64,000 nucleotides of DNA, from IMG/VR virus record IMGVR_UViG_3300045141_000130, positions 9,358 to 73,357 of that record; one strand, written 5' to 3'. A program made the position numbers and the translations under genes. The stretch is from a virus. Under the pieces are notes generated by a model that made no database searches, was not told the DNA's origin, and saw only the letters and a program-made list of their open reading frames with translations. Positions 38,925-54,509 of this stretch are shown here, in pieces. Numbering within the stretch: the first letter of the stretch is position 1; every line of letters starts with the position of its first letter.

Positions 38925-39125
38925 TCACTGGGGGGCCTTCGTGTTTTCGCGGTACTCCCACACCTGGGGGGCGGACAGCAGAAACGGCCCGGTCGCCGTG
39001 TCGAGCGGCTTCCAGGCCGTGAGTGTCCCTCGGTGGATGAGTCTGCGGACGGTTTGCGTGCTGCAGCCCAGGAGGACGGATGCCTGCTGCACCGTCATCG
39101 TGGACTTCGGGGGGGAGTGAGTCAT
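38925..39125 (-). CDS. Excisionase-type helix-turn-helix DNA-binding protein
   Basis: MTVQQASVLLGCSTQTVRRLIHRGTLTA, an HTH_17-like pattern. Confidence 0.8.
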   Translation of the reverse strand: MTHSPPKSTMTVQQASVLLGCSTQTVRRLIHRGTLTAWKPLDTATGPFLLSAPQVWEYRENTKAPQ

Positions 39126-41008: not shown

Positions 41009-41051
41009 TCCTGAGACTCCTTGTCTCCCAACGGGTCTGGCGACCCGAACG

Positions 41052-41081
41052 TTGCATTACTGCACAAAAGGATGCTACAAT
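41052..41081 (+). promoter_or_regulatory. SigA-like promoter of the rightward accessory arm
   Basis: TTGCAT-N18-TACAAT with a TGn extended -10, at the strand switch. Confidence 0.7.
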
Positions 41082-41226
41082 AGAGATATGCGTTGCGGCG
41101 TGCCCAAAAACAGGGCCGCCGGGGCCCACGGAGCAGATCTCCGTGGGCCCTTCCCATATCGGGGCGCACACCCACAAGCCGTCCGGCTCACCCCGGGCGG
41201 CTTTCGTGTCTGGAGAGGACACTGCA

Positions 41227-41850
41227 ATGTTCAAGTTCCACCGCAGCAACGGCAAGCACGTCGCCGCCGAGCACACCTGCCCGCTGGCCGTCACCCTCCC
41301 CACCGTCGGCCGCCACGTCGACGCCCGGACCACCGCGAAGTTCATCGTGGCCGGTGCCAAGGTGCAGGCCGAGGCGATCATCGCCGAGGGCAAGGCGCAG
41401 GCCGAGTCGGTCCTCAAGGCCGACGCGGAGTTGCGCGTCAAGCTGGCCCAGATGACCGCTGACGCCAAGGCCGAGGCTGACGCCAAGGCCAAGGCGCAGC
41501 GCGACGCCCAGAGGGCGGCGGACAACGCCATCGCCGACTGGCGCTACGAGGCAGCCCGCGCCGACCGCCGCGAGCGCAAGCACCAGGTGCGTCTTGCCAA
41601 GGCGCAGAACGCCACCGCGGCGATGAGGGCCGCTGCCGACGAGAAGATCGCGGCGTTCAACGCCCAGGCCGCGAGCGCGGCAGCCGCGAACGACACGATC
41701 GACCTGGCCTTCCAGGCGAGCGAGATCCAGATGCTTGCCGAGCAGGTTGCGAAGCTCGCTGGTGACCTGGCTGCCAAGCAGGTCGAGAAGGACCTCGCCG
41801 ACCTGGCGATCCAGCACCTGATCGACCGGACGGTCCCTGCGGCCGCCTGA
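41227..41850 (+). CDS. Ala-rich coiled-coil hypothetical protein (first early gene)
   Basis: ATG after GGAGAGGA. 207 aa, starts MFKFHRSNGKHV. Confidence 0.75.
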   Translation: MFKFHRSNGKHVAAEHTCPLAVTLPTVGRHVDARTTAKFIVAGAKVQAEAIIAEGKAQAESVLKADAELRVKLAQMTADAKAEADAKAKAQRDAQRAADNAIADWRYEAARADRRERKHQVRLAKAQNATAAMRAAADEKIAAFNAQAASAAAANDTIDLAFQASEIQMLAEQVAKLAGDLAAKQVEKDLADLAIQHLIDRTVPAAA

Positions 41851-41990
41851 GACTTGGCGTGGCACGGCACGGCTGGGCTTGGCCTGGCGTGGCGTGGCCG
41901 GGCAAGCCATGGCTTGGCAAGGCATGGTTTGGCTGGGTCCGGCCTGGCAAGGCACGGCGCGGCAAGGTAAGGGTCCCTCGCAAGGGGGAC
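41851..41990 (+). repeat. GGY-NN pentamer array 1 (24 units) plus GCAA-loop hairpin; putative guide RNA
   Basis: GACTT GGCGT GGCAC GGCAC GGCTG...GGTAA GG, then GTCCCTC-GCAA-GGGGGAC. Confidence 0.92.
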
Positions 41991-42115
41991 AAGTAGTACC
42001 CGCAATACAGCAGCCCCCCAGCATCCGTGCTGGGGGGCTGCTGGCGTTTTTCGGCGTATTACCCCCAGGCCAACCGGTCTGGGGTCCCTGCGTTTCTCCT
42101 GAGAGGAGAAAGCAG

Positions 42116-42484
42116 TTGAGCGACACCAGTGGTATCCAGCCCTTCTTCCAAGGCCTGGGGTCCTACCTCGGCGACTACGTCCGCCAGGCGACCGAAGCGT
42201 CCTCCTTCCACGTCGGTGACGGGGTGCGCTACCACGGCTCGAAGGTGGCCGACCACGGCTACTGGAGAGTCCAGGCCGTCCCCGGCAATGGGACGGTCGA
42301 GATCGGGCGGCGCGGGGAGCGCCGGTACCTGGTCGTTCGGCCGCAGTCGATCGACAACCTCCGCGACGAGGTCTGCCGACACTGCGACGCTGCCGAGGTC
42401 TGGCACTACGCGATGCGCGTCGACGACATCGTCGACGGGGATCTGCCGGTGCAGGACCTCTGCTACTCCTGCGAAAACAGGTAG
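42116..42484 (+). CDS. Hypothetical protein (SH3-like plus Zn ribbon)
   Basis: TTG start after GAGGAG. FHVGDGVRY, CRHC..CYSC. Confidence 0.6.
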   Translation: MSDTSGIQPFFQGLGSYLGDYVRQATEASSFHVGDGVRYHGSKVADHGYWRVQAVPGNGTVEIGRRGERRYLVVRPQSIDNLRDEVCRHCDAAEVWHYAMRVDDIVDGDLPVQDLCYSCENR

Positions 42485-42500
42485 CAAACAGCAGCAACGC

Positions 42501-42561
42501 TTCAAGCCCCCCGGCCGCTCGGCCGGGGGGTTCCTGCGTGTCTGGAAAGGACATGGCAATG
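42501..42561 (+). repeat. 61-bp hairpin+RBS leader repeat, copy 1
   Basis: 57/61 identical to 43028-43088. Confidence 0.85.
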
Positions 42562-43017
42562 AGCAACACCAAGAAGCACCGAGGAAGGTTCGCCTTCCTC
42601 CTGGCGGGCATCATCACGGCCCTGCTGATCGCGTCGGCGTTCAGCGTCGGGTGGGTGTCCAACGCGGCGCCCGACCCGGTGCTGAGGCCGCAGCCCGCCG
42701 TCACCGTGCTGACCCACACGGTGCCCACCACCGTGCCCACCACCGTGGTCCACACCCAGGTGGAGACGCAGACCAAGACGGTGACGCGGGTCAGCGCCTA
42801 CTGCGCGGCGGCCATCGCGGATGCCGACGGCATCCAGGCCGAGTGGCTGCAGGTCGCCACCGACATGGGCAACGCCACCTCCGACATGGTCTACGGGGGG
42901 GCGAACGCCGCCAGCAACAGCGAGGTCGAGTCGGCCACCGCGCTGTTGAAGAAGTTGAACGACACCGACATCCCGCAGTACACCGCCGACAAGATCAAGT
43001 GCCAGGCGGGCGAGTAG
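42559..43017 (+). CDS. Membrane-anchored/secreted protein
   Basis: N-terminal basic stretch plus TM helix, Thr/Val-rich stalk, two Cys. Confidence 0.72.
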   Translation: MSNTKKHRGRFAFLLAGIITALLIASAFSVGWVSNAAPDPVLRPQPAVTVLTHTVPTTVPTTVVHTQVETQTKTVTRVSAYCAAAIADADGIQAEWLQVATDMGNATSDMVYGGANAASNSEVESATALLKKLNDTDIPQYTADKIKCQAGE

Positions 43018-43027
43018 CACTCGCAGT

Positions 43028-43088
43028 TTCAAGCCCCCCGGCCGACCGGCCGGGGGGTTCCTGCGTGTCTGGAAAGGACACTGCAATG
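43028..43088 (+). repeat. 61-bp hairpin+RBS leader repeat, copy 2
   Basis: TTCAAGCCCCCCGGCCG-AC-CGGCCGGGGGGTTCCTGCGTGTCTGGAAAGGACACTGCAATG. Confidence 0.85.
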
Positions 43089-43661
43089 CCCACAGAAGTT
43101 CAGCAGTTGAAGGCCGAGCTTGATGCCCTGCGTCTCCGGGTCATCCGGCTTGAAAGCACCACCCGGGGTATGCAGCGCGGCATCACGGCGCTGAAGGCGG
43201 TCGACAAGCCCGACCTGTCGGTGGTCGACTCCCCGGACGTCGAGCACATGGTCAGCCGTCTCGCCGGTGACCTGGCGAAGCGCCTGGGGCTGACCGACAT
43301 CACCCTCACCCCGGAGCAGCGGGAGGCGGAGGTCCAGTCGCGCCGCGACATCGAGCTTCGCGGGCTGCGGGTCGTCAACGAGCAGCTGCTCGCCGAGAAT
43401 GCGAAGCTCCGCGGCGACATCGAGTACCTGCGCAACGAGGCGTCCAGGCTCCGCGGGCTGAAGCTCACCGCCGAGGACGCCCTGGCCAACGATCAGCATG
43501 TGATCGAGGCGCTGCGCAAGGAACTCCGGCAGTTGACGGCCGAGACGATGCGCAGGGTCAACGCCGACAGGCTCGTCACCGAGGCCCCGGTCCTGACCGA
43601 CCCGTGGGAGGGTCTGACCGACCGGCAGCCCCGCAGCCACGGCAAGCCGGTCCGCGGCTGA
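43086..43661 (+). CDS. Coiled-coil hypothetical protein
   Basis: Start MPTEVQQLK after GGAAAGGA. Confidence 0.7.
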   Translation: MPTEVQQLKAELDALRLRVIRLESTTRGMQRGITALKAVDKPDLSVVDSPDVEHMVSRLAGDLAKRLGLTDITLTPEQREAEVQSRRDIELRGLRVVNEQLLAENAKLRGDIEYLRNEASRLRGLKLTAEDALANDQHVIEALRKELRQLTAETMRRVNADRLVTEAPVLTDPWEGLTDRQPRSHGKPVRG

Positions 43662-43867
43662 TGAACCCCTACGAGCAGGTCAGCTTCCGCCTGGCCGTCG
43701 GCGACGTCGTCCACCTGTTCCTGCCCCAGTCGAAGCTGACCGGGGTGGTGGACAGGATCGAGCTTCGCCTCGGCGGGCTCGACTGGACCCGGATCCACGT
43801 ACGGGTCGACGCGGACGGCGTCACCCGCGAATACCCCGTCGGGATGGTCTTCCCGGCGGGCTGCTAG
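43661..43867 (+). CDS. Small SH3-like hypothetical protein
   Basis: MNPYEQ..LAVGDVVHL. TGATG coupling. Confidence 0.6.
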   Translation: MNPYEQVSFRLAVGDVVHLFLPQSKLTGVVDRIELRLGGLDWTRIHVRVDADGVTREYPVGMVFPAGC

Positions 43868-43881
43868 TCCGCAAAAAGCGG

Positions 43882-43913
43882 TACAATGGAGGAGTCGCGT
43901 TGCGGCGTGCCCA
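43882..43913 (+). promoter_or_regulatory. Second early-promoter-like element
   Basis: TACAAT followed by GCGTTGCGGCGTGCCCA, the same 17-mer as at 41090-41106. Confidence 0.6.
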
Positions 43914-43999
43914 CTTTCGGGCCGCTGCGGCGCGATTTCTCGTTTCACCCCCCGGCGACCGTCGGGGGTTTCTTCGTTTCTCGGGAAAGGGAAACAGCA

Positions 44000-44116
44000 A
44001 TGAACGTCCCAGCGCACCACCTCAGGACCGGCCTGATCGTCGCCGTGGTCATGGCGATCATCACCGCGATCTGGGCGGCCGTGTTCGGCCTCGGCCTGAA
44101 GGAGAAGCAGTCGTGA
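44000..44116 (+). CDS. Small membrane protein
   Basis: 38 aa with a TM helix, after GGAAAGGG. Confidence 0.55.
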   Translation: MNVPAHHLRTGLIVAVVMAIITAIWAAVFGLGLKEKQS

Positions 44117-44313
44117 TCAGGATCTTGGTCGTCCTCTTCATCATCTGGGTCTTCGGCGATAAGGACCGCCCCGCCGAGCGCAACAACGACTGACGCATTC
44201 GGCGGGGCCCGGTTTCGACCGGGCCCCTGCCGTGGGTGCCAGTCACACCCAAACGGCCCCCCAGCACTCCCGCTGGGGGGCTTACTTCGTTCCCACGAAA
44301 GGGGAACAGCACC

Positions 44314-44643
44314 ATGAGCAACGCATTCACGCAGTACTGCCAGGCCCTCGGCAAGGGTCTGGGCCAGGGCACCACGGCGACCTGGCGCCAGACGAACACC
44401 CTGGCCGGGTTCGCCCAGGTCGTCCTCACCCCGATGGCCATGCGCCCCGCGGTGCTGGTGGGCAACCTGGCCACCAACGTGGTGATCCACTCCACCACGG
44501 CGTTCAAGGAGACGGCAGCGGTCCGCAAGGCCGCGGCGCCCGTCGCCGCCCTGCCCCAGGCGGCTGCCGCAGCCGCTGGCGCCCAGGCCCAGCCTGGGGC
44601 GATCTTCATCGTCCCGCCGGTCAAGACGGCCAGCGGGTCCTGA
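44314..44643 (+). CDS. Hypothetical protein
   Basis: Start MSNAFTQY after GAAAGGGG. Confidence 0.65.
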   Translation: MSNAFTQYCQALGKGLGQGTTATWRQTNTLAGFAQVVLTPMAMRPAVLVGNLATNVVIHSTTAFKETAAVRKAAAPVAALPQAAAAAAGAQAQPGAIFIVPPVKTASGS

Positions 44644-44709
44644 AGTACCGCCGGGGGGCCGCCTGGCCCCCCGGCACCCTTCGTTCCCACAGAAAGGGGA
44701 ACTTGCACC

Positions 44710-45039
44710 ATGTCCACTCCATCAACACCCACCACCGGCCCGGTCACGCTCATCCCGGCCGGGTCCATCGAGTGGGGCGTCATCCAGCAGAACGCCAAGG
44801 ACGTCGTGGCGTTGCGCGCCGAGGTCGCCCTCCTCAAGGAGGCCAAGGAGATCCGCGACCGCCGCATCTCCTGGCTGGAGTCCACCCTCGGCGAGAAGAT
44901 CGCCGAGGTGGTCGCCCTGCGTCGGGAGGCCGCAGTGGCCGGGCTGTCGCTCGACCGCTACCGCGGGCTGATCGACAGCCTCGCCGCACTCAGCAAGGCG
45001 CAGTCCCCGGAGACGGCCGCACCCGCGGCTGCCTCCTGA
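44710..45039 (+). CDS. Coiled-coil hypothetical protein
   Basis: GAAAGGGG RBS, 109 aa. Confidence 0.65.
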   Translation: MSTPSTPTTGPVTLIPAGSIEWGVIQQNAKDVVALRAEVALLKEAKEIRDRRISWLESTLGEKIAEVVALRREAAVAGLSLDRYRGLIDSLAALSKAQSPETAAPAAAS

Positions 45040-45107
45040 TCGACACCGTGGGGCGGGGAGCGCATCCCCGCCCCACGGCCCCAACCCACCAACTCCAAGG
45101 AGGAGTG

Positions 45108-45461
45108 ATGCGCAACCCGTTCCGCAGCAAGGCTGTCGCGTTCGACCCCGAACCGTGGCGGCCCGGTGAACTGTTCACCGAGTACCGCGCCGTCGTCAGT
45201 TCGTTCGACGACGACAAGCAGTTCCCGATCGTCTCGGTGTTGGCCGCCAACGCCGAGCAGGCCCAGCAGGCGATCACCCACGCGGTGAACGCCAAGGCGC
45301 TGGAGATGGGTGTGAGCATGGACTACCTGCAGGTCCAGATGCTGGCCTCCCCGGAGGTCGTCCGGGTCTGGAACCAGGACATCAACACCCGGTCGTGGGG
45401 CGTGTTCGCCACGCCCGCCAACCACGCCGCCATCGAGGCCCCGAAGAGGAAGGCCTCCTGA
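45108..45461 (+). CDS. Hypothetical protein
   Basis: Start MRNPFRSK after AAGGAGGAG. Confidence 0.7.
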   Translation: MRNPFRSKAVAFDPEPWRPGELFTEYRAVVSSFDDDKQFPIVSVLAANAEQAQQAITHAVNAKALEMGVSMDYLQVQMLASPEVVRVWNQDINTRSWGVFATPANHAAIEAPKRKAS

Positions 45462-45916
45462 TGACGACCCCCCGGCGGAAGCTCCCCAAGATCAACCCCG
45501 CCATGGCGATCGCCGGGGGGATCGGCATGGGGGGACTTGCCCCGGTCCGCCCCCGCCGGTCCCTGGGGCGGGTCAAGGACGCGGCGTTCCAGCCCGTGGA
45601 GCGCAAGTACGTGGACGTGTCCGACAACCCGCAGTGGCTGGCCCTGGAACCCCAGCTAGACAGGGCACGCAAGGCCGTGGAGCGCTGGGAGGACAAGGAG
45701 GTCGACGCCAACACCGCCATGCGAGAGATCGCGGGCGACCAGGATGTCGAAGGCCTCCGGTTCCGCCTGTTCCACAGCCACCCGCAAGGTCCCGTCAACC
45801 TGGAACTGCTGGCCGCCCACTTCGGCGTCAGCATCGGGTTCCTCGACAGGTTCCGGGACCCGCGGCGGCACAGCGTCACCATCCAGCGCATCGTCGGGCG
45901 GAGGCGGAAGCGATGA
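45461..45916 (+). CDS. Hypothetical protein
   Basis: TGATG coupling, GAGGAAGG RBS. Confidence 0.6.
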   Translation: MTTPRRKLPKINPAMAIAGGIGMGGLAPVRPRRSLGRVKDAAFQPVERKYVDVSDNPQWLALEPQLDRARKAVERWEDKEVDANTAMREIAGDQDVEGLRFRLFHSHPQGPVNLELLAAHFGVSIGFLDRFRDPRRHSVTIQRIVGRRRKR

Positions 45917-46134
45917 CCGAGCACGTCTACACGGTCACCATCACCCACCTCACCCTGGAGGCGAAGGAGGCCGACGCGATGATGACGACGGCCATCGAGG
46001 CGCTGGGCGGCATGCTGTACGAGTACTCCGGGGGCCTGGCGGCGTACGAGGTGACCGGCTTTCGCCACGGCGACGGCGAGGTCATCGGGTACGTCCACGA
46101 CCCGGACGAGTTGGAAGATGAGGAGGGGACATGA
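45913..46134 (+). CDS. Hypothetical protein
   Basis: Start MTEHVY, ATGA overlap. Confidence 0.6.
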   Translation: MTEHVYTVTITHLTLEAKEADAMMTTAIEALGGMLYEYSGGLAAYEVTGFRHGDGEVIGYVHDPDELEDEEGT

Positions 46135-46469
46135 ACGCCGCCCCCGCTGCCGATACCGGCGGCCTGTGCTGGGAGCAGCTGCCCAGCGACCAGGCCGCCG
46201 CGCTCGTCCTCGTCGACCTGTACCGGGCGCACCTGTCCACCAGCGAGTCCAGCCGCCGCTACCGCATCGTGGTGGCGGCGTACAACCAGTGGCTGGGCGC
46301 CGTCAAGGTGATGGGCTTCGTCTGGCACCGCAGTCCCGACGACATCCGCGATGCGGTCATCGACACCGTGATGGCCGTCGGCCGGGCCTACCACAGCGAC
46401 GACAAGGCGCAGTGGCAGGACCGGGCGATGTACGGCGTGCTGGGAAAGCTGCACCTGCACGACGACTGA
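46131..46469 (+). CDS. Hypothetical protein
   Basis: GAGGAGGGG RBS, 112 aa. Confidence 0.65.
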   Translation: MNAAPAADTGGLCWEQLPSDQAAALVLVDLYRAHLSTSESSRRYRIVVAAYNQWLGAVKVMGFVWHRSPDDIRDAVIDTVMAVGRAYHSDDKAQWQDRAMYGVLGKLHLHDD

Positions 46470-46479
46470 CGCAGTCTCT

Positions 46480-46502
46480 GGCCCACCCTTCGGGGTGGGC
46501 CA
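46480..46502 (+). terminator. Hairpin, terminator candidate
   Basis: GGCCCACCC-TTCG-GGGTGGGCC with a T-run shortly downstream. Confidence 0.5.
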
Positions 46503-46619
46503 GGGGTCTGCGATTTTTTGCGTTTCCGGGGAAAAGATGATCTTGAACCCTCCGATTGGTGTCGGAGGGTCGATTCATGCTGTCCGGAACCACCGGCAGC
46601 ACCCGAAAGGAGGGCCGCT

Positions 46620-47975
46620 GTGACAACAGCGAGTCCCGAGCGCATCGGAAATGCGCACACCGCAGTAGCGCGAGGTGCCGAGTTCGGCGACATCCTCGCG
46701 TTGCTCAACAAGCAGCAGGCCAGGAAGGTCGACATCGTCATTCCTGGCAGCAAACTGCTCGTCCGGGACGGCATGCTCGTCGTCGCCGACGACGTCGTCG
46801 ACATGAGCGACGAAGGGGTGACCCGGGTCGGCGGCGAGTATTGGCCCACCACCTGGTTCGACGCCCACGTCGCCGAACGGTTGGACATTCCTGTTGCCTA
46901 TCTGCGCCGCCTGCGCAACGGCAGGGAGATCGTCGGCACCAGGGGTCGCAGCCGCACCCTCGGCCCGCGACTGGACCTGTACGACAGCAACGTCAACGGG
47001 TTGTTCCGCGGCAACGACGACGTCCCGCCGGACCTGCGGAACTTCTACGCCCGGCTGCTCGTCCCCGACGACCAGGACACCAACGGCATCGCCTACGCGC
47101 TGATGTCCTCCAAGTACTGGAGGCTGGACAACTACGACGCGATCATGGCCACCCTGTCCGGCATCCGCAAGGCCGGGATCGACCCGCTGTCGTTGCACAT
47201 CTACGGCGACCTGTCGGAGACGAAGCTGTACCTGCACGTCCACGCGCCGCAGGTGCTCACCGCCGCACCCGAACTGCTGCGCAACTACCGCAGCCCGTTC
47301 GACATCCAGGGCGAGGCAAGCAAACGCCAGGTTCCGGCCTACACGCTGGAGCAGAGGGTGGCCATGGGCCGCCAGTGGCGGGAGACCCACCGGCTGGACG
47401 AACACATCCAGCCCGGCTCCGAACCGCTCGTCCACTCCGGTTTCCTGATCACCAACTCGGAGATCGGGCAGGGCCGCTGGTCCATCCAGAAGGAGATCGT
47501 CTTCCTGGCGTGCACCAACGGGATGACCTTGACGGCGGGCCGTTTCGAGCGGCGGCACGTCGGCAGCGACCAGGAGGAGGGCCAGGTCGAATGGTCGGCG
47601 GAAACCCGTGACGCCGAGTTGCAGTGGATCGTCTCCTCGACCGCCGACATCGTGGCCGATGCGCTCAACCCGGAATCCCTGGAGAACACCGTCACCGCCC
47701 TGGAGCAGAAGGCGGGGCGCACCGTGGACGACCCGCGACGCACCATCGCGGTCGTCGCCCAGAAGCACCTGTTCAACAAGGACGAGGAGGAGGCGATCCT
47801 CCGCCACTTCGAGTTGGGTCAGGCCTTCACCAGTGCCGGTGTGGCGCAGGCCATCTCGTCCGTCGCCCAGATGTACGAGGACCCGGACCGGGCGCACAAG
47901 CTGACCGACGCCGCCATCCCCGCGATGGAACTCGTCCACTCCCTGAGAAGTACCGGGAGTCGGGCATCCCTCTGA
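46620..47975 (+). CDS. DUF932-family protein
   Basis: GTG after AAGGAGGG. AERLDIPVAYLRRL, ALMSSKYWRLDN, GFLITNSEIGQG, FLACTNGM, ERRHVG. Confidence 0.78.
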   Translation: MTTASPERIGNAHTAVARGAEFGDILALLNKQQARKVDIVIPGSKLLVRDGMLVVADDVVDMSDEGVTRVGGEYWPTTWFDAHVAERLDIPVAYLRRLRNGREIVGTRGRSRTLGPRLDLYDSNVNGLFRGNDDVPPDLRNFYARLLVPDDQDTNGIAYALMSSKYWRLDNYDAIMATLSGIRKAGIDPLSLHIYGDLSETKLYLHVHAPQVLTAAPELLRNYRSPFDIQGEASKRQVPAYTLEQRVAMGRQWRETHRLDEHIQPGSEPLVHSGFLITNSEIGQGRWSIQKEIVFLACTNGMTLTAGRFERRHVGSDQEEGQVEWSAETRDAELQWIVSSTADIVADALNPESLENTVTALEQKAGRTVDDPRRTIAVVAQKHLFNKDEEEAILRHFELGQAFTSAGVAQAISSVAQMYEDPDRAHKLTDAAIPAMELVHSLRSTGSRASL

Positions 47976-48356
47976 GACCTGGCAAGGCCGGGAGAGGCCG
48001 GGCGAGGCATGGCTAGCTTTGGCACGCAAGGGCGAGGCTTGGCTTGGCTAGGCGTGGCAAGGCGTGGCTAGGCGGGGAATGGCAAGGCGAGGTATGGAAT
48101 GCCGAGGCGGTGCATGGCCGGGCTAGGCCAGGTTCGGCGCGGTATGGCTCGGCAAGGCATGGCGAGGCTCGGTTGGGTCGGCCATGGCGAGGCAAGGCTA
48201 GGCGAGGCGCGGTGTGGCAAGGCGGGGTTCGGCAAGGTCAGGTTCGGCGTGCTCCGGTTTGGTATGGCCAGGTCGGGCTAGGCACGGTCGGGTCCGGTTC
48301 GGCGGGCCTGGGCATGGTATGGGCTCCCCGTAAGTCCCTCATTTGGGCCGGGGAGC
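47976..48356 (+). repeat. GGY-NN pentamer array 2 (69 units) plus UAAGU-bulged hairpin; putative guide RNA
   Basis: GACCT GGCAA GGCCG...GGCAT GGTAT GG in unbroken 5-nt register 47976-48320. Hairpin 48323-48356. Confidence 0.93.
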
Positions 48357-48391
48357 AAACAACAAATCCCTTGAGAGGAAAGGATTTTCGC

Positions 48392-48802
48392 ATGACAGGA
48401 GGACCATCAGACGGGGCGTACGAAGTCCTGAACACGATGCTTCACGACATGCTTCACAGCCCGGGGGCGCAGGCCACGTTCAACATGGACACGCCGATGG
48501 CGACACTCATCGACACGTTCGATCTGGCCTTGCCGCCGGACTCCGACGAGAACTTCACCTGCGATCTGTGCGACCAGGTACACCGGGAGGGCCTGGACCG
48601 CATCGTCACCGCATTCGAGCCTGGCGAGCCACCCACCGACGGCAGCCCCGGGTACGTCAAGATGATCGCCGCCGCGGGCAAGAGCCCCACAGATCTGGCC
48701 ATGGAGAAACTCGACCGACCGAGGGTGATCCTGGTCCTGTACTCGTGCCGCAACTGCTCGCTGGAGATCCAGCAGGGGATGGACCGCCAGGAAACCTTCT
48801 GA
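48392..48802 (+). CDS. Zn-binding hypothetical protein
   Basis: Start MTGGPSD after GAGGAAAGGA. CDLC...CRNC. Confidence 0.65.
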   Translation: MTGGPSDGAYEVLNTMLHDMLHSPGAQATFNMDTPMATLIDTFDLALPPDSDENFTCDLCDQVHREGLDRIVTAFEPGEPPTDGSPGYVKMIAAAGKSPTDLAMEKLDRPRVILVLYSCRNCSLEIQQGMDRQETF

Positions 48803-49226
48803 GACGTGCTGTGGCATGGCGTGACTCGGTGGGGCGAGGCGGGGCATGCTTTGGCGCGGCGAGGCGGGGCTAGGCGTGGCCAGGCACGGCGCGGTTCGGC
48901 TCGGCGGGGCGAGGCGAGACATGGCAGGCCAAGGCAGGGCACGGTGCGGTTCGGCTGGCCATGGCTTGGTGTTGGCACGGCTGGGCTCGGCAGGGAATGG
49001 CTAGGCCTGGTTTGGTGCGGCCGGGAGTGGCTCGGCTAGGCAAGGTCGGGTTAGGCGTGGCTCGGCGTGGCAAGCCTTGGCGCGGCGCGGTGTGATCAGG
49101 TTGGGTGTGCCGCGGTTTGGCTTGGTCGGGTTAGGCGCGGCGTGGCATGACTTGGCTCGGTGTGGCTCGGCATGGAAGGCCAGGGCACGGTTTGGGTTCT
49201 CCGTAAGTCCCTTCGGGCCGGAGAAC
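48803..49226 (+). repeat. GGY-NN pentamer array 3 (78 units, one 6-nt unit) plus UAAGU-bulged hairpin; putative guide RNA
   Basis: GACGT GCTGT GGCAT...GGCAC GGTTT GG. Hairpin GTTCTCCG...CGGAGAAC at 49196-49226. Confidence 0.93.
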
Positions 49227-49280
49227 AAAGGGGGATTGGGGGGGGCGTATACAACCTCGAAACTCTTTGGGAGAACAAGA

Positions 49281-50339
49281 ATGACGAGTACGGAAACACA
49301 GATACGTGCAGTGTCTGACGCACCGTTCGCAATGACGCCGCATTTGTTGCGGATGCTGCGCGAGCGGCCTGTCGGGGTCCAGCGGATCCTGCGCAGGACC
49401 GACACCGGGGAGTTGAGGGCGTTCCTCGACCCCACCGCCGCAGACCAGGGCTTCTGGACCGCCCTCCCCGTCTGGCGTTCGGCGGAATGGCGCTACGACG
49501 ACAGCCGCTGGCTGGCCAGCACCGGCAGCCTGTCGTCGCCGGAGAACCTGGTGGACAACCTCGGCTGGTTCGACGTCCCGATCGTCTGGGCCATCACCGA
49601 GACCCCGTACTTCGCGGAGTTGCTCGCGGCCCGGTCGGACGACACGGTGCTGGTGATGGGTGACCCGCGGGACGGCGAACTGCGGTGCTACAAGGAGCGG
49701 AACTGGGACGAGTACCCCGCCCAGAGCGGCTGGCAGGCGTGGCCGACCGTCCGCGATCCCCTCAACCGGTCCTACGGCCCGGATCTCAACTGGCTGACCC
49801 ACAACTTCGGCGCCGTCTCCCTGCAGCAGGTCAAGGACGCCGGTTTCATCAAGGTGTGGGAGAAGGCCGAGGAGAACCCCATCCTCGTCGAGGTCAACCC
49901 GGAGGTGAACCGGCTGCAACTGCGCATCACCGACCTGGAGTCCACCCTGGCCACTCTGCGCACCCAGAACCAGACGCAGCAGCGGCGCCTGGAGCAGATG
50001 TCCAACGACCACGAGCGGTTCAAGGAGTTGGTGTCCTCCACCGCCACCAAGTACGCCCGGCGGCACGACTGGTGCTCCGTCGTCGACGAGGCGCTGGAGG
50101 AGATGGGACTGGAGAGGGAGCCGGTCAGCTTCAGCGGGGTCATCAGCGTCCGCATCAACTTCACCGCCAACCGCACCGACGGTGAACGTGGCACCCCGAA
50201 CGCCCGTGACGTCAACCGCTGGCTGTACGGCGAGGATGACGTGCGTGAAGCCATCGGCGAGAACCTCAGCCTCGACGAGGATTACGCCGGTGACTTCGAG
50301 ATCGACAGCTACAGCTTCGAGGTCATCTCCACCTCGTAG
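49281..50339 (+). CDS. Hypothetical protein (Trp-rich N-terminus, coiled coil)
   Basis: Start MTSTETQIR after GGGAGA. 352 aa. Confidence 0.72.
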   Translation: MTSTETQIRAVSDAPFAMTPHLLRMLRERPVGVQRILRRTDTGELRAFLDPTAADQGFWTALPVWRSAEWRYDDSRWLASTGSLSSPENLVDNLGWFDVPIVWAITETPYFAELLAARSDDTVLVMGDPRDGELRCYKERNWDEYPAQSGWQAWPTVRDPLNRSYGPDLNWLTHNFGAVSLQQVKDAGFIKVWEKAEENPILVEVNPEVNRLQLRITDLESTLATLRTQNQTQQRRLEQMSNDHERFKELVSSTATKYARRHDWCSVVDEALEEMGLEREPVSFSGVISVRINFTANRTDGERGTPNARDVNRWLYGEDDVREAIGENLSLDEDYAGDFEIDSYSFEVISTS

Positions 50340-50420
50340 TGCGCTACGCAGTAGCAGCCCCCCTGCCACCCGGCAGGGGGGCTTCCTTGTCCGCAAAAAC
50401 ACCTGAAAGGTGGTTCTGCT

Positions 50421-51041
50421 GTGCCAGACGTCGACGACGAAGACCCGTCACGACACACGTACGAGAGCCGGGAGATGGCCGAACGGGAACTGGCGGGCTG
50501 GTTCCCGCCGTCGGTCCCCGAGGAGGCCAAACCGGAACTCATGCGCATCGCCATCGTCGAACACCCCGGGCAGGAACCCCTGCGCACCCTGTGGAGCATC
50601 CACCCGGAGTTCGTCTACCTGACGAACCCCGAACTGTGGATGCTCGTCACCTGGATCACCGGTGACGAGCGTTCCCGCGGCAGCCTCCGCGGGATACCGC
50701 TGCTACTGGTCCAGCTGGCAGCGCTGCGCGATCACCATGTCGCGCTCATCGGGCAACTCAACGAACTGACATCCAACCAGGAGGCAAACACCATGACCGA
50801 ACCCATCAACGTCGACCCCAGCACCGTGATCCATCAGGGAACGATCAGCATCGCCATCGACTTCCGGGCAACCTTGGCGCCCACCGAGTTCCTGGAGGGC
50901 GACGACATCGAGGAGGCGCTGAACAAGTTCGCCGACCTGGAGGCGATCAAGAACGCCATCAAGGCCGCTCCCCGGCTCGACGGCATCTCCATCGAGAGCA
51001 TCTCGTTCGGTGCTCAGGTGGCCAGCTTTTTGACCAGCTGA
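50421..51041 (+). CDS. Hypothetical protein, with a strong internal in-frame start at 50793
   Basis: GAAAGGTGG before GTG 50421. AGGAGG before ATG 50793. Confidence 0.55.
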   Translation: MPDVDDEDPSRHTYESREMAERELAGWFPPSVPEEAKPELMRIAIVEHPGQEPLRTLWSIHPEFVYLTNPELWMLVTWITGDERSRGSLRGIPLLLVQLAALRDHHVALIGQLNELTSNQEANTMTEPINVDPSTVIHQGTISIAIDFRATLAPTEFLEGDDIEEALNKFADLEAIKNAIKAAPRLDGISIESISFGAQVASFLTS

Positions 51042-51047
51042 CCTTCT

Positions 51048-51218
51048 GACGTGGCCAGGGCTTGGCAAGCCGTGGCGGGGTCGGGTCGGCCGTGGCGTGG
51101 CTAGACAGGGCCGGGTTTGGTGTGGCTCGGAATGGTGCGGCGAGCCAGGGTTCGGCTCGGCATGGCATGGCCGGGTTCGGTGAGGTATGGGGCCCCCCAG
51201 CCTTCGGGCTGGGGGGCC
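51048..51218 (+). repeat. GGY-NN pentamer array 4 (~28 units) plus cUUCGg hairpin; putative guide RNA
   Basis: GACGTG GCCAG GGCTT GGCAA...GGTGA GGTAT GG, then GGCCCCCCAGCC-TTCG-GGCTGGGGGGCC. Confidence 0.93.
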
Positions 51219-51240
51219 ATCCTCGTCGCAGGGGGGTTGC

Positions 51241-51429
51241 GGCGAGGCTGGCTGAGGCGCGGCGCGGCGGGGCAGGGTCCGGCTTGGCCAGGCATGGCTG
51301 GGCGAGGTTGGGTGTGGGGTGGTTAGCCGAGGTCCGGCGCGGCTGGCTGGGGTTCGGCGGGGTGGGGCTTGGTCTGGCGTGCCCAGGCACGGTGAGGTAT
51401 GGGGCCCGCCACGGGGGGTGTGGCGAGCC
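51241..51429 (+). repeat. GGY-NN pentamer array 5 (32 units) plus hairpin; putative guide RNA
   Basis: GGCGA GGCTG...GGTGA GGTAT GG, then GGCCCGCCAC...GTGGCGAGCC. Confidence 0.92.
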
Positions 51430-51431
51430 AT

Positions 51432-51789
51432 GGATAGGACTGGCAAGGCTGGACCTGGCGGGGCAAGGTCGGACAGGGCAAGGCGTGGCCTGGTGCGGCT
51501 GGGTTAGGCACGGCCTGGTGCGGCTAGCTTCGGCGGGGCGTTGGCTCGGCATGGCCTGCCGTGGAAAGGTTGGCCGAGGCAAGGCGTGGCAAGGCGCGGC
51601 GAGGTGAGGCCTGGCAGGGCAGGGCGCGGCGAGGCGGGGCAGGCCACGGCGGGGCGAGGTGTGGTCAGGTTCAGGTGGGGTCTGGGTCTGGCGTGGCAGC
51701 GGCTGGGCCAGGCCCGGTTTGGCCAGGCGCGGCGTGGTATGGGCCGCCCGTAAGTCCTTAGCCGCCGGATGCGGCTAAGGCCGGGCGGC
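51432..51789 (+). repeat. GGY-NN pentamer array 6 (~61 units, four 6-nt units) plus UAAGU-bulged hairpin; putative guide RNA
   Basis: GGATA GGACT GGCAA...GGCGT GGTAT GG. Hairpin 51743-51789. Confidence 0.9.
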
Positions 51790-51814
51790 GAAACAAGTCT
51801 TCCTTCCAATCTCA

Positions 51815-51937
51815 GGCTAGGCATGCCGAGCACAGGCATGGCCTGGATAGGTGCGGCGCGCTGCGGTTGGCCGTGGCTCGGCAGGGAAAGGCTTGGCAAG
51901 GCGAGGTATGGGTCCCCAAGGAGAAGCCTTGCGGGAC
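51815..51937 (+). repeat. GGY-NN pentamer array 7 (19 units) plus hairpin; putative guide RNA
   Basis: GGCTA GGCAT...GGCGA GGTAT GG, then GTCCCCAAGG-AGAAG-CCTTGCGGGAC. Directly upstream of the RAMP gene. Confidence 0.9.
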
Positions 51938-51956
51938 AAGAACAAAGGAGCACGCC

Positions 51957-52640
51957 GTGGTTACACGGAGCCGCAGTACCGCAGTGAAGCCGGACCCGGA
52001 GCCGAACGCTCTGGACGGTGATGTGAGCGACTCGGGCAACGCCACGTACGAGGCCAACCGGCCCTTCCGGGCGGCCGTCGAGATCACCGGCGACTCGGTG
52101 ATCCTGTTCCACCGTTGGCAGTCCGACGCGGTCGACGCGAAGGCCGCTGCCGCCAAGGGGTCCCGAGCGAAGAAGACCGATGATGTTGATTCTTACGTTT
52201 GGGAGAACGAGAACGGGGTGCTGTGCCTGCCCGGCGAGTACCTGCGTTGCTCGCTCACCAACCCGCAGAACGGTGCCGCGAAGTACCTTCAGGACCCGCG
52301 GTCCCCCCGCAAGTCGGCCTTGGATTTGTTCAAGGCTGGTGTTGTCAGCCTCACCGACCTGGCCCCGATCACCAAGGCGGACGGCACACCGGCCGAGGGC
52401 TGGGACCACCTGGACCGCCGCCGCGTGGTGGTGCAGAGGTCGGGCGTCACCCGCTCCCGGCCCGCATTCGCCACCGGCTGGAAGGCGGAGATCATTTTGA
52501 TGTCTCTGCTGCCTCAATACATCAGCCCGTCATTGCTGCGGACGACGCTGTCCGACGCTGGGAAACTCGTTGGGGTGGGCGACTTCCGGCCCACCTTCGG
52601 CCGGTTCAGCGTCACGAAGTTTGAGGTCCTCCAGGACTAG
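51957..52640 (+). CDS. Stand-alone RAMP/Cas7-like RNA-binding protein (putative effector of the GGY-NN arrays)
   Basis: GTG after AAAGGAG, 227 aa. N-terminal strand AAVEITGDSVILFH. GVLCLPGEYLRCSL resembles the Cas7-group IPGSSxKG motif. Basic thumb-like DRRRVVVQRSGVTRSRP. C-terminal Gly-rich loop AGKLVGVGDFRPTFGRFSV. Confidence 0.78.
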   Translation: MVTRSRSTAVKPDPEPNALDGDVSDSGNATYEANRPFRAAVEITGDSVILFHRWQSDAVDAKAAAAKGSRAKKTDDVDSYVWENENGVLCLPGEYLRCSLTNPQNGAAKYLQDPRSPRKSALDLFKAGVVSLTDLAPITKADGTPAEGWDHLDRRRVVVQRSGVTRSRPAFATGWKAEIILMSLLPQYISPSLLRTTLSDAGKLVGVGDFRPTFGRFSVTKFEVLQD

Positions 52641-52901
52641 GCGAGGCTGGGCTGGGCATGGCGCGGCTGGGCGCGGCAAGGCCTGGCTAGGAATGGCAAG
52701 CCGGGGCGCGGCTAGGCGAGGCTGGGCGGGGTCAGGTGGGGCTAGGTTCGGCGTGGCATGGCGAGACATGGCTCGGCTGGGCAAGGCGTGCCTTGGCAAG
52801 GCGCGGCGCGGCTGGGAAAGGCAAGGTCGGGTGGGGCCTGGCGAGGTCCGGCCGGGTATGCCGAGGCTCGGTGAGGTATGGGTTTCACCCTCGGGTGAGA
52901 C
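52635..52901 (+). repeat. GGY-NN pentamer array 8 (49 units) plus hairpin; putative guide RNA
   Basis: GACTA GGCGA (overlapping the TAG stop)...GGTGA GGTAT GG, then GTTTCACC-CTCG-GGTGAGAC. Confidence 0.93.
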
Positions 52902-52918
52902 GAGAAGTATTGGCCTGC

Positions 52919-52947
52919 TTGCGTTCTCGGTTTTGACCCCATACAAT
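52919..52947 (+). promoter_or_regulatory. SigA-like promoter
   Basis: TTGCGT-N17-TACAAT. Confidence 0.65.
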
Positions 52948-53075
52948 GGGGACATGCCTTCCGAACAACTGGGCGCCGCTGAGGCGAACACCAGCGGGAG
53001 GCGAAGCACTGGATGTCCGTTGCGGGGTGCAAGTCCCCGGTTCCTGCAAAGAGCCACGGAGTCCGGTTCGACCTA

Positions 53076-53111
53076 GAGGCCCCGCCTGATTCGTCAGGCG
53101 GGGCCTCTTTC
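53076..53111 (+). terminator. Intrinsic terminator-like hairpin
   Basis: GAGGCCCCGCCTGA-TTCG-TCAGGCGGGGCCTC followed by TTT. Confidence 0.65.
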
Positions 53112-53170
53112 GTTGTGTGCCCGGCAGCATTCCCGCTGCCGGGCTTTCGCATTTCTCCAAGGAGGAGAGC

Positions 53171-53479
53171 ATGACAACAGCGGTTGTGAAGAAGGCAAAA
53201 GCGGGGACCGTGCTCGTCACGGCCGAGATGTACGCCGTGATCCGCGAGACGAAGAAGGGCCACGTCAAGGTGGACCTGATGCTCCGCCTGCCGAAGCCGA
53301 GCCAGCAGGGACTGGTACGGCTGTGCCGCCGCACCTTCTACGCCTACGGGCACACCGGCTACCGGTCCCAGGACGCACAGCGCTGGGCTGAGGCGGAGGC
53401 CTGGGCCAACGCCCGGCTGTACGCGCTGAGCACCGGCCCACGCCGCCAGTTCCTGTATCTCACCGGGGCGCAGAACTGA
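53171..53479 (+). CDS. Hypothetical basic protein
   Basis: Start MTTAVVKK after AAGGAGGAG. Confidence 0.65.
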   Translation: MTTAVVKKAKAGTVLVTAEMYAVIRETKKGHVKVDLMLRLPKPSQQGLVRLCRRTFYAYGHTGYRSQDAQRWAEAEAWANARLYALSTGPRRQFLYLTGAQN

Positions 53480-53874
53480 TGGCCGGGATGATCACCAGGC
53501 TGGACGGGACGCCGCTGGACGAGTCGGACTCGGCCATGGTCGCTGCGTGGTTGGGCAAACGGGCGGTGCAGCGTGGCCCCAGGGTGGGGGACCATGTCGA
53601 GTTCGCCGATGGCAAGACCCTGGTCATCGCCACCCGCTGGGGCAGCGGCATCCAGGTCACCACGGGGGGGACGTTCTATCTGCGAGACAACGGCAGGCTC
53701 GTCTGCGAGAGCCCGTCGTTCCAGTCCGTCAACGACCAGGGCCTCACCCGGTCGGCCAGGACGGTGTACACGAAGGTCTGGTTCTACCATCGCGGCGAGC
53801 CTGTCGCGGGCGGTGGGATCGAGATCAATGTTCCTTCACGGTGCTACCGCTCTCCGACGCGGTCGCCGAAATAA
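53479..53874 (+). CDS. Hypothetical protein
   Basis: TGATG coupling. GPRVGDHVEFADG..IQVT.GGTFYL pattern. Confidence 0.65.
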   Translation: MAGMITRLDGTPLDESDSAMVAAWLGKRAVQRGPRVGDHVEFADGKTLVIATRWGSGIQVTTGGTFYLRDNGRLVCESPSFQSVNDQGLTRSARTVYTKVWFYHRGEPVAGGGIEINVPSRCYRSPTRSPK

Positions 53875-53892
53875 TCCAACAGGAGAAGTTGA

Positions 53893-54126
53893 ATGACAGA
53901 TGTTGAACCGCCGCTCGCACAGGTGATCCGGTTGGTGTTGGGGGAGGCGGCGCACGAGTCGACCCCGGAGGCCAACCCCAGGGATCGGATGTTGGTGGCG
54001 GCGACCCTGCTGGTCGTCGCCATAGTCGTGGCGTGGCCGAAGGACCGTCCGGCACCGGCACCGGTGGCAGCGGCCTACCGGTTCGGGCAGGACGTGTGGA
54101 CGCGCCGCGGTTGGTGGATGAACTGA
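53893..54126 (+). CDS. Small membrane protein
   Basis: AGGAGA RBS, one TM helix. Confidence 0.55.
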   Translation: MTDVEPPLAQVIRLVLGEAAHESTPEANPRDRMLVAATLLVVAIVVAWPKDRPAPAPVAAAYRFGQDVWTRRGWWMN

Positions 54127-54182
54127 TAGCCCTCGATGCCCCCGGGTCCGCCCGGGGGCATCGCCACATCAAGGAGGAACAG

Positions 54183-54509
54183 ATGGGAAGACACAGCGCA
54201 CCCGAGGGTGCGGAAGAGCCCGACGTCGTGACGGTGCTCTATCACGGCAGGCATCGCAACGAGGAAGCGAACGCCGCGGAGGCGGAGGCGAACCACCGCC
54301 TGTTCCAGTGCGCCTGGTGCCTGCTCGGGGACGGTGACGGCCGGGACTGGGACACCAACCAGGAGTACGCCAGGGCGATCTACGAGTTGGTCGGCGACTT
54401 CTTCGAGTTCGACAAGACCGAGGTGCCCGCCCTGCTCAAGGCGGGCCGTTACATGAACGCCGAGGGTCTGGACTGGCTGCTACGGCTGCTCCAGGACGGT
54501 CGGCGGTGA
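54183..54509 (+). CDS. Hypothetical protein
   Basis: Start MGRHSAPEG after AAGGAGG. Confidence 0.65.
   Translation: MGRHSAPEGAEEPDVVTVLYHGRHRNEEANAAEAEANHRLFQCAWCLLGDGDGRDWDTNQEYARAIYELVGDFFEFDKTEVPALLKAGRYMNAEGLDWLLRLLQDGRR

What the first reader, a model, noticed from the sequence alone, without database searches (positions are those of the whole stretch)
51054..51113. Guide block spelling SFKVGRRVVYRR: the wing motif of excisionase/AlpA-type HTH genes
Seen: NN = ag tt aa gt gg cg cg gt gt ta ag cg, i.e. S/R F K V G R R V V Y R/S R. Established: SFK(L/V)GRRVVYRR is the typical C-terminal wing of actinobacterial HTH_17/AlpA-like excisionase regulators in prophages, integrative elements and satellites. 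This phage's own HTH (38925-39125) lacks the motif, so the target is non-self. Inference: the phage blocks induction or excision of resident prophages or satellites. The next block (51114-51183) reads in reverse as SERIIDELSAIETK, a probable second, unidentified target.
Basis: partly seen in the sequence, partly recalled or inferred. Interest (0 to 1): 0.88.

Follow-up and report, generated by a model that had tools for sequence, protein, structure and literature searches.

The report
Phage VIPR guide aimed at excisionase genes
A soil phage of high-GC bacteria carries a recently described CRISPR-like silencing system (VIPR), and one of its five-base-step guide segments spells, two letters per codon, the DNA-binding wing of small excisionase-type regulator genes that sit beside integrases in mobile elements, so the phage probably keeps such resident elements switched off.

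Summary
Window 51054-51113 is twelve 5-nt units (scaffold GGY or a variant, plus a variable NN).

It is the 5' part of a 27-unit + strand tract (51048-51188) that ends in GGTATGGGG and a hairpin. The tract lies 0.8 kb upstream of a 227-aa protein that matches the solved SUSP1 Vipr protein (E 4e-7; family profile 2.7e-12). So this is a VIPR system, described in 2026 preprints, not a new kind.

Read by the published rule (NNx, one base skipped), the block has no exact 12-unit match in three public collections. Its 9-unit core hits 17 loci, and 7 of these are in-frame wings of small excisionase-like HTH genes.

Best matches are 23/24 (an Actinomycetales MAG), 22/24 and 21/24. A tyrosine integrase lies nearby in 8 of 10 loci examined. 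Shuffled guides never exceeded 19/24. The phage itself has no match above 16/24.

Silencing of excision or induction is inferred, not shown. The second block (51114-51183) has no target yet.

The parts
51044..51053 (+). Leader of the tract just after the stop codon (51039-51041) of ORF 50421-51041. It reads TTCTGAC, then GT GGC, one base out of register with the rest. Other tracts start with the related CTGAGAC.
51054..51113 (+). Guide block A, the finding: 12 units whose NN read AG TT AA GT GG CG CG GT GT TA AG CG. By the NNx rule this is S-F-K-V-G-R-R-V-V-Y-(S/R)-R, the wing of HTH_17 excisionase-like genes.
51114..51183 (+). Block B: 14 further units in the same register (TT GT TC AT GC GA AG TC TC AT AT CG TC GA). 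No target found.
51184..51218 (+). 3' tail: GGTAT-GG, then a 12-bp G+C hairpin at 51191-51218 (-31.8 kcal/mol, z -3.0). Equivalent tails end four other tracts that were folded.
51957..52640 (+). vipr: a 227-aa RAMP-type protein, homologous to the solved SUSP1 Vipr protein.
41851..52880 (+). Span that holds all eight GGY-NN tracts of the phage (starts 41851, 47976, 48803, 51049, 51241, 51432, 51815, 52635; 19-78 units each). All lie on the + strand.
38925..39125 (-). The phage's own HTH_17-type gene (66 aa). It has no SFKVGRRVVY wing and scores 12/24 against the guide, so it is not a target.

Best explanation
Block 51054-51113 is a guide segment of a VIPR RNA (vrRNA).

The tract 51048-51218 is transcribed on the + strand. 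Copies of the Vipr protein (51957-52640) polymerise along it, each holding one GGY-type triplet and exposing the next two bases. The twelve exposed dinucleotides pair with codon positions 1 and 2 of twelve consecutive codons, skipping each wobble base. The target is the stretch that encodes the recognition wing (S-F-K-V-G-R-R-V-V-Y-x-R) of small HTH_17 excisionase/AlpA-like regulators. These genes sit beside the tyrosine integrase of integrated elements (prophage-like islands, mobilisable elements, possible satellites) in Actinomycetes hosts.

As shown for the E. coli phage SUSP1, binding would block transcription of that gene. Where the gene heads an operon (as in locus L011), binding would also block the genes behind it. 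The resident element then could not excise or switch on while the phage replicates.

Shown here: the repeat grammar, the Vipr homology, the tail hairpin, the in-frame near-perfect matches, their gene family and neighbourhood, and the absence of a self match.

Inferred: transcription and processing of the tract, filament formation, DNA binding, silencing, and its effect on the element.
For: System:
- The Vipr candidate matches PDB 36pp_D 'SUSP1 Vipr protein' at E 4.2e-7. A 30-sequence family profile matches it at E 2.7e-12.
- GGY-NN tracts occur only on the vipr strand. Each of the five tracts folded ends in a hairpin.
- 18 of 20 related vipr loci from IMG/VR also carry such tracts on the vipr strand.
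- The published rule is NNx with x mostly at the wobble position, either strand, and at least 80% NN match for natural targets (bioRxiv 10.64898/2026.04.26.720920, Results and the Methods section on targets read; 10.64898/2026.04.26.720927, section 6 read).

Target:
- The exact 9-unit core (units 2-10) gave 4 loci in genome contigs and 13 in metagenome contigs.
- 7 of these 17 are in-frame wings of small HTH proteins (L010, L011, L013, L014, L022, L023, L024).
- Over all 12 units L011 scores 23/24, L022 22/24, and L013, L014, L023 and L024 20/24.
- Pfam HTH_17 was confirmed for L011 (E 8e-13), L022 (1.5e-12) and the G354 gene (8.8e-9). PHROGs calls the L011 protein 'excisionase and transcriptional regulator'.
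- In 401 Actinomycetes-class genomes, 2 have a site with at most 3 mismatches (the seed genome G001 and G354, SFTLGRRVVYRR). The backwards control has 0 of 401.
- In 25 homologous loci found by protein similarity, not by the guide, the guide reaches 17/24 or more at the wing in 10 and 20/24 or more in 3. For 200 shuffled guides the mean was 0.39 loci, the maximum 3 loci, and the best score 19. Of 225 12-unit windows of the phage's own arrays this window ranks first.
- Wobble bases differ among targets while NN stay the same.
- An integrase lies nearby in 8 of 10 loci examined. In G354 it is followed by tRNA-Pro.

Self:
- The best match in the 73,357-bp phage is 16/24, the same as shuffled guides.
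Against: - No 24/24 target exists in viral contigs, genome contigs or the window. IMG/VR has no hit even for two 9-unit seeds.
- By my own arithmetic a 596-Gb collection is expected to hold about 17 chance hits of an 18-base gapped seed (4 were seen). The chance that one of them also matches 5 or more of the 6 remaining bases is about 0.02-0.08, so the single best hit is only moderately significant.
- The family sample was seeded from the guide's own best hit, so it tests breadth, not independence.
- Only 3 of 25 family members pass the published 80% line.
- None of 674 guide windows from 20 related vipr loci resembles this guide (best 13/24) or hits the same target loci at 20/24 or more. No other guide of this phage hits L011, L022 or 80 kb around the G354 site. 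So there is no convergence of guides on one element, unlike SUSP1.
- The tract has 27 units against 9-16 in the published vrRNAs, and no boundary is visible after unit 12.
- The host is unknown. The phage's portal gene was not found in five target-bearing genomes.
- No RNA data exist.
Confidence: 0.72

Rival explanations
1. Chance decoding. The tract is a real vrRNA, but the likeness of units 1-12 to the HTH_17 wing is a coincidence picked out of about 350 units by eye. The true target is something else or is not yet sequenced.
For: No exact target was found. My arithmetic gives about 0.3 expected matches of 23/24 or better for any 12-unit string in 596 Gb. No second guide of this or related phages hits the same elements. 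Only 3 of 25 family members reach 80%.
Against: Seven of 17 seed hits fall at the same position of the same gene family, all in frame with x at the wobble base. The best one is in an Actinomycetales genome inside an integrase-flanked element. Shuffled guides never exceed 19/24 on the same loci, and the window ranks first of 225. The match starts at the first in-register unit of the tract.
Confidence: 0.15
2. The guide is aimed at HTH_17 'excise'-type genes of competing free phages (temperate or lytic actinophages), not at integrated islands or satellites. Silencing would then disable a rival's early regulator during co-infection.
For: Homologues of the target protein are annotated 'excise', 'excisionase' or HTH DNA-binding protein in 66 cultured actinophage records (Mycobacterium 57, Gordonia 5, Microbacterium 2, Corynebacterium 1, other 1). 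The published P. fulva VIPR guides mostly hit prophage lysis-lysogeny regulators.
Against: All 66 phage hits are below 60% protein identity. IMG/VR holds no hit for either 9-unit seed. All matches of 20/24 or better found here are in bacterial genome or metagenome contigs, and an integrase lies nearby in 8 of the 10 loci examined.
Confidence: 0.08
3. The 27-unit tract acts as one long guide against an 81-bp target that is not in the databases. The 12-unit HTH_17 match is then only a partial, non-functional likeness.
For: No processing signal or register change separates units 12 and 13. There is one tail per tract.
Against: Units 13-27 match at chance level in every HTH locus (4-9 of 30). Read forward, block B does not continue an HTH_17 protein. 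Within tract 5, the match of window 51316 to an hsdM motif in L010 also spans about 12 units (22/24) and then stops. This suggests target-sized blocks inside long tracts. The published filament has 12 protomers.
Confidence: 0.05

Closest known systems
VIPR systems (Vipr protein + vrRNA). The reference is type II of Escherichia phage SUSP1 and a Pseudomonas fulva prophage: bioRxiv 10.64898/2026.04.26.720920 (Results and the target-analysis Methods read) and 10.64898/2026.04.26.720927 (outline and section 6 read).
   Same: A lone RAMP-type protein homologous to SUSP1 Vipr. Flanking same-strand tandem 5-nt units of GGY plus variable NN. A structured 3' tail. A target match that follows the one-base-skip rule with the skipped base at the codon wobble position. 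No self match at 80% or more. Encoded by a phage.
   Different: Tracts have 19-78 units instead of 9-16. About two target-sized blocks share one tail. Many scaffold variants occur (GCC, GAC, GGA, GCT). The tail is a simple hairpin; no pseudoknot was tested. Tracts are scattered over 11 kb, several starting right after the stop codon of unrelated genes with a CTGAGAC-like leader. No neighbouring gene is co-conserved with vipr in 20 related loci, so no vap was found. The host group is high-GC Actinomycetes. The words Actino, excisionase and AlpA do not occur in the main texts of the first, third and fourth papers listed (supplements closed).
SUSP1 vrRNA4 against the excision recombinase of F5 satellites (bioRxiv 10.64898/2026.10.15.759431; outline and sections 6 and 17 read).
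   Same: A phage guide reads only codon-determining positions of a conserved stretch of a gene needed for excision of a resident integrated element. The wobble positions vary among targets.
   Different: The target here is the small HTH_17 excisionase/AlpA-like regulator beside the integrase, not the recombinase itself. The footprint is 12 units (35 bp) against 6 units (18 bp). There is no experimental evidence, and no convergence of several guides on one element.
CRISPR interference by catalytically inactive effectors, and class 1 Cas7 filaments.
   Same: An RNA-guided protein filament that blocks transcription. A thumb domain interrupts guide-target pairing periodically (as described in the papers read).
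   Different: No CRISPR repeats or cas genes are present. Pairing is 2 of every 3 target bases and 2 of every 5 guide bases.

Membership tests
VIPR system | Vipr protein: a minimal RAMP homologous to described Vipr proteins | tested here: met
   phmmer against PDB sequences: 36pp_D 'SUSP1 Vipr protein', E 4.2e-7, residues 68-220 against 36-188. Profile of 30 homologues: E 2.7e-12. No Pfam family. Fold not predicted here.
VIPR system | vrRNA genes: tandem 5-nt units with a conserved GGY and a variable NN, beside vipr on the same strand | tested here: met
   Eight tracts, all on the + strand. The 7-unit pattern occurs 14 times forward, 0 reverse and 0 in the control. 18 of 20 related vipr loci carry such tracts on the vipr strand.
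VIPR system | Variable region capped by a conserved structured 3' tail | tested here: met
   GGTAT-GG (GGTAA-GG in tract 1) followed by a hairpin in each of the 5 tracts folded. z-scores range from -1.2 to -3.8. A pseudoknot as in the SUSP1 clade was not tested.
VIPR system | Targets obey the one-base-skip (NNx) rule, with x mostly at the codon wobble position | tested here: met
   All 7 HTH-type seed hits and the 21/24 and 20/24 hits are in frame with NN at codon positions 1-2. Other skip lengths were not compared.
VIPR system | No self-targeting at 80% NN match or more | tested here: met
   The best match in the whole 73,357-bp genome is 16/24, equal to 200 shuffled guides.
VIPR system | Accessory vap gene next to vipr (usual, not universal) | tested here: not met
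   None of 10 neighbouring genes of the window is conserved beside vipr in the 20 related loci; one gene has a single weak match in 1 of 20. Pfam finds nothing in the neighbours. The papers describe systems without a fixed vap set, so this does not exclude membership.
VIPR system | vrRNA is expressed and bound by Vipr; the complex binds DNA and silences | not testable with these tools
   No RNA run holds the phage. Needs experiments.
Target: HTH_17 excisionase / AlpA-like regulators of integrative elements | Pfam PF12728 (HTH_17) domain in a protein of 60-80 aa | tested here: met
   L011 E 8.3e-13; L022 E 1.5e-12; G354/L030 E 8.8e-9. All 38 database homologues carry PF12728. L010, L013, L014, L023 and L024 were judged from the translated peptide only.
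Target: HTH_17 excisionase / AlpA-like regulators of integrative elements | Gene lies beside a tyrosine integrase in an integrated element | tested here: met
   Phage_integrase lies within about 0.1-2.2 kb in L011, L022, L014, L024, L030 (with tRNA-Pro), L053, L054 and L056. It was not seen in the 3-kb loci L055 and L059. That is 8 of 10.
Target: HTH_17 excisionase / AlpA-like regulators of integrative elements | Acts as a recombination directionality factor or activator of the element | not testable with these tools
   Only annotation-level support: phrog_66 'excisionase and transcriptional regulator', and source names such as 'excisionase family DNA binding protein' and 'AlpA'.

The most novel reading that the evidence does not exclude
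Long vrRNA tracts of this actinophage clade are multi-guide RNAs: two or more independent blocks of about 12 units share one 3' tail. The 5' block of tract 4 is a family-consensus guide that reads only the codon-determining bases of the DNA-recognition wing of Xis/AlpA-like regulators. One guide could then freeze many different integrative elements (prophages, satellites, mobilisable islands) in the host chromosome during infection, in a vap-less VIPR variant of Gram-positive high-GC hosts.
Probability: 0.3. Interest if true: 0.6.

Novelty: new member of a known kind. Interest (0 to 1): 0.38.

Why it matters
It is a worked example of the published VIPR code in a soil actinophage, a host group that the main texts of the first, third and fourth papers listed do not mention. 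It points to a target class, the small excisionase/AlpA-type regulator beside the integrase, that extends the published theme of phages immobilising resident elements (the SUSP1 satellite recombinase). It gives concrete target sequences (the L011, L022 and G354 types) for a reporter test. It also raises a testable architectural question: can one long vrRNA tract carry several independent guides? It does not change the picture of what VIPR is.

Tried and rejected
- Exact 12-unit pattern: 0 hits in viral contigs, in genome contigs, and in the window with up to 3 mismatches.
- Two 9-unit seeds in viral contigs: 0 hits each.
- Megablast of 49000-53000 against cultured phages: no match.
- The portal protein only reaches 46% identity to Arthrobacter phages, so the host stays unknown. 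The portal was not found in five target-bearing genomes.
- Block B (51114-51183): 0 hits with up to 3 mismatches in G001 and G354, and 0 hits for a 10-unit seed in viral contigs. No window of it reaches 20/24 on 46 fetched loci.
- Convergence test: no other guide of this phage hits L011, L022 or 80 kb around the G354 site above the shuffle level. No guide of 20 related vipr loci hits the HTH loci.
- Rfam: no family in 41000-53500.
- Promoter scan: none. One weak terminator-like hairpin lies at 51098-51113, and the number of such sites is within the shuffle range.
- No RNA holder was listed among the sequencing runs.
- Read laying: one variant contig of run X3 covers 50400-51122 with 58 differences. 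The only listed difference inside 51038-51122 is 51076 C>T, a scaffold GGC>GGT change. But 30 of that contig's differences are not displayed, so no conclusion on conservation of the NN is drawn.
- My first idea, a TRAP-like RNA-binding attenuator or a DNA structural repeat, was dropped once the Vipr homology and the papers were found.
- The reverse-strand decoding of block A (RLYTTRRPT..) was rejected because all in-frame family hits are in the forward sense.
- Supplements of the papers are closed. VIPR type tables and target lists there may already contain actinophage systems or HTH/excisionase targets.

Full report
WHAT IS THERE. The window is bases 9358-73357 of a 73,357-bp IMG/VR virus record with direct terminal repeats, 68% G+C. 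Its portal protein is at most 46% identical to those of Arthrobacter phages. The record is held by soil metagenome runs only.

Positions 51054-51113 lie in a non-coding + strand tract. The tract starts a few bases after the stop codon of ORF 50421-51041 and runs to 51188. It is built of 5-nt units, each a scaffold triplet (GGC or GGT, less often GCC, GAC, GGA) plus two free bases. Fifteen more units follow in the same register: the 14 units of block B, then GGT.at. After that come GG and a 12-bp G+C hairpin.

The window has eight such tracts, of 19-78 units, all on the + strand between 41851 and 52880. The mirror pattern on the other strand and the backwards-read control give nothing.

WHAT SYSTEM IT IS. 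I checked that.

Three 2026 preprints describe Viral Interference Programmable Repeat systems. A lone RAMP protein (Vipr) polymerises on a vrRNA made of GGY/NN repeats capped by a structured tail. The NN bases pair with DNA while every third target base is skipped, and the skipped base mostly falls on the codon wobble position. Binding silences transcription, and natural targets are taken at 80% NN identity or more (10.64898/2026.04.26.720920, Results and target Methods read; 10.64898/2026.04.26.720927, section 6; 10.64898/2026.10.15.759431, sections 6 and 17).

The 227-aa ORF at 51957-52640, 0.8 kb downstream of the tract, has no Pfam family. It does match the PDB chain 36pp_D 'SUSP1 Vipr protein' at E 4.2e-7. 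A profile of 30 of its 4,854 database homologues matches the same chain at E 2.7e-12.

Twenty related vipr loci were fetched from IMG/VR, and 18 carry GGY-NN tracts on the vipr strand. So the finding is a piece of a VIPR guide array.

Differences from the published type II reference:
- The tracts are much longer.
- Scaffold variants are frequent.
- The tail is a plain hairpin.
- Tracts are dispersed and start after stop codons with a CTGAGAC-like leader.
- No neighbouring gene is co-conserved with vipr, so no vap was found.

THE TARGET TEST. The exact 12-unit NNx pattern has no match in IMG/VR, in 596 Gb of species-representative genomes, or in the window with up to 3 mismatches.

The exact 9-unit core (units 2-10) gave 4 loci in the genome collection, 13 in the metagenome collection and none in IMG/VR.

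Of these 17 loci, 7 place the match in frame in the C-terminal wing of a small helix-turn-helix protein of the form ..LR(F/Y)WR.xGxGPxx FKVGRRVVY ..xxVxxWL (L010, L011, L013, L014, L022, L023, L024). Of the other 10, seven are out of frame or contain a stop codon; four of those seven are one repeated sequence. The remaining three are in-frame stretches of unrelated sequence.

Over all 12 units the scores are:
- L011: 23/24. This is an Actinomycetales MAG contig, peptide SFKVGRRVVYKR.
- L022: 22/24, peptide GFKVGRRVVYRR.
- L013, L014, L023 and L024: 20/24.

Units 13-27 of the tract match at chance level everywhere (4-9 of 30). Shifting the 12-unit window by one unit lowers the score from 23 to 21.

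A mismatch-tolerant search of 401 Actinomycetes-class genomes found two sites with at most 3 mismatches: the seed genome and G354 (SFTLGRRVVYRR, 21/24). The backwards control pattern found none.

WHAT THE TARGETS ARE.
- The L011 gene is a 62-79-aa HTH_17 protein (E 8e-13), called 'excisionase and transcriptional regulator' by PHROGs. It heads a leftward string of genes with a major head protein and a tape-measure protein, between two integrase genes.
- The L022 and G354 genes are also HTH_17. In G354 the gene abuts a 440-aa tyrosine integrase followed by tRNA-Pro, the classic end of an integrated element.
- A tyrosine integrase lies within about 2 kb in L011, L022, L014, L024, G354, L053, L054 and L056. 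It was not seen in the short loci L055 (DUF3987 protein) and L059 (DUF3631 protein). That is 8 of 10 loci examined. L054 also carries a TrwC relaxase.
- The 38 database homologues of the L011 protein all carry PF12728. Sources name some of them excisionase-family or AlpA regulators. Their consensus wing is SFKVGRRVxYRE.
- Cultured actinophages only have distant relatives, all 66 records below 60% identity, often annotated 'excise'.

IS IT MORE THAN CHANCE? Taken alone, the best hit is only moderately significant. By my arithmetic about 17 chance hits of an 18-base gapped seed are expected in 596 Gb (4 were seen). The chance that a given hit also matches 5 or more of the 6 remaining bases is 0.0046.

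What lifts it is the pattern of hits:
- 7 of 17 fall at the same place of one family, all in frame.
- The best one is in the expected host class, in an integrase-flanked element.
- In a sample of family members gathered by protein similarity, the guide reaches 17/24 or more at the wing in 10 of 25 and 20/24 or more in 3 of 25. This sample is the 30 loci that fetched (from its 58 matches in 43 of 201 genomes), less the seed and four loci from unpublished genomes.
- On the same loci, 200 shuffled guides average 0.39 loci and never exceed 19.
- Among 225 windows of the phage's own arrays this one ranks first.
- Over 46 fetched loci (258 kb), the only matches of 20/24 or better of any window are this guide on HTH wings and the neighbouring-tract guide on an hsdM motif. 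Three sets of shuffles gave none.

The caveat is that the family was defined from the guide's own best hit.

Evidence against a strong claim:
- No perfect target.
- No second guide of this phage or of 20 relatives on the same elements.
- Low breadth at the 80% line.

SELF AND NON-SELF. The phage's own HTH_17-type gene (38925-39125) aligns without the wing motif and scores 12/24. The best site in the full genome is 16/24, the same as shuffled guides.

HOW IT PROBABLY WORKS. By analogy with SUSP1, whose guide vrRNA4 reads codon-determining positions of a satellite's excision recombinase and keeps the satellite from excising, I infer the following. A Vipr filament on this tract pairs units 1-12 with the template strand of the wing-coding stretch of Xis/AlpA-like genes in resident integrative elements and blocks their transcription. 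In L011-type elements it would also block the head and tail genes downstream. Every step after the sequence match is inference.

The 12-unit footprint equals the 12 protomers of the solved SUSP1 complex. A second 12-unit footprint, of window 51316 on an hsdM motif in L010 (22/24), also sits inside a longer tract. So these long tracts may hold several guides per tail. That is the boldest reading left open.

WHAT IS UNRESOLVED. Open points are the target of block B, the RNA ends, the host, the VIPR type of this clade, and whether the papers' supplements (closed) already list such systems or targets.

A similar case, a VIPR guide on an HTH_17 gene beside the integrase of islands in Flavobacteriaceae, was noted earlier in this scan on other DNA (e1-6084691). 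I did not test it.

VERDICT. The system is already known (VIPR), so this is a new member with a plausible, untested target. Interest is moderate.

Noticed in passing
L010 (Phycisphaeraceae MAG locus), 7663-7704 and the HTH seed hit at 3033-3058: The 8-kb locus fetched for guide A's seed (an HTH-type wing, HLKVGRRVVY) also holds a 22/24 match to a different guide of this phage. Window 51316 hits VCDPACGTGGFL, the SAM-binding motif of a methylase gene. The match covers about 12 units and then stops.
   Followed up: partly
window 41846-41853, 47971-47978, 48798-48805, 51044-51050: Four tracts begin at or just after a stop codon with a shared leader, (C/T)CTGAGAC (TTCTGAC in tract 4). It could be a processing or start signal.
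   Followed up: no
window 49077-54509 and loci L032-L051: No gene next to vipr is conserved beside vipr in 20 related IMG/VR loci (one weak match of ORF 49077-50339 in L037). This clade seems to lack a fixed vap gene.
   Followed up: partly
L011 355-7999: Compact element: integrase, tape-measure-like gene (569 aa), major head protein (480 aa), small ORFs and an HTH_17 gene, then a divergent HTH_36 protein and a second integrase start. All this lies within 8 kb. It may be a satellite-like island or a prophage remnant.
   Followed up: partly
window 51098-51113: A weak hairpin (GGC/GCC core) followed by GGTTTGGTGT sits exactly at the end of block A. The scan's count of such sites is within the shuffle range.
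   Followed up: no
window 51076: In a variant contig of one soil run (about 8% different over the upstream gene), the only listed change inside the tract's first 85 bases is C>T in a scaffold triplet (GGC>GGT). Many of that contig's differences were not displayed.
   Followed up: partly
window 57254-63655 (-): A 2,133-aa ORF with strong coding signal lies on the opposite strand downstream of the array region. It was not examined.
   Followed up: no
L032, minus strand (two tracts of 13 and 11 units, starting at 11000 and 12589 in reverse-complement coordinates): It is the only related locus with GGY-NN-like tracts (24 units) on the strand opposite to vipr.
   Followed up: no
window 51250-51680 and 52600-52830: Contigs of other soil runs align to the arrays only in short, chimeric pieces with many joints. 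They are most likely other phages' GGY-NN arrays, not variants of this one.
   Followed up: no
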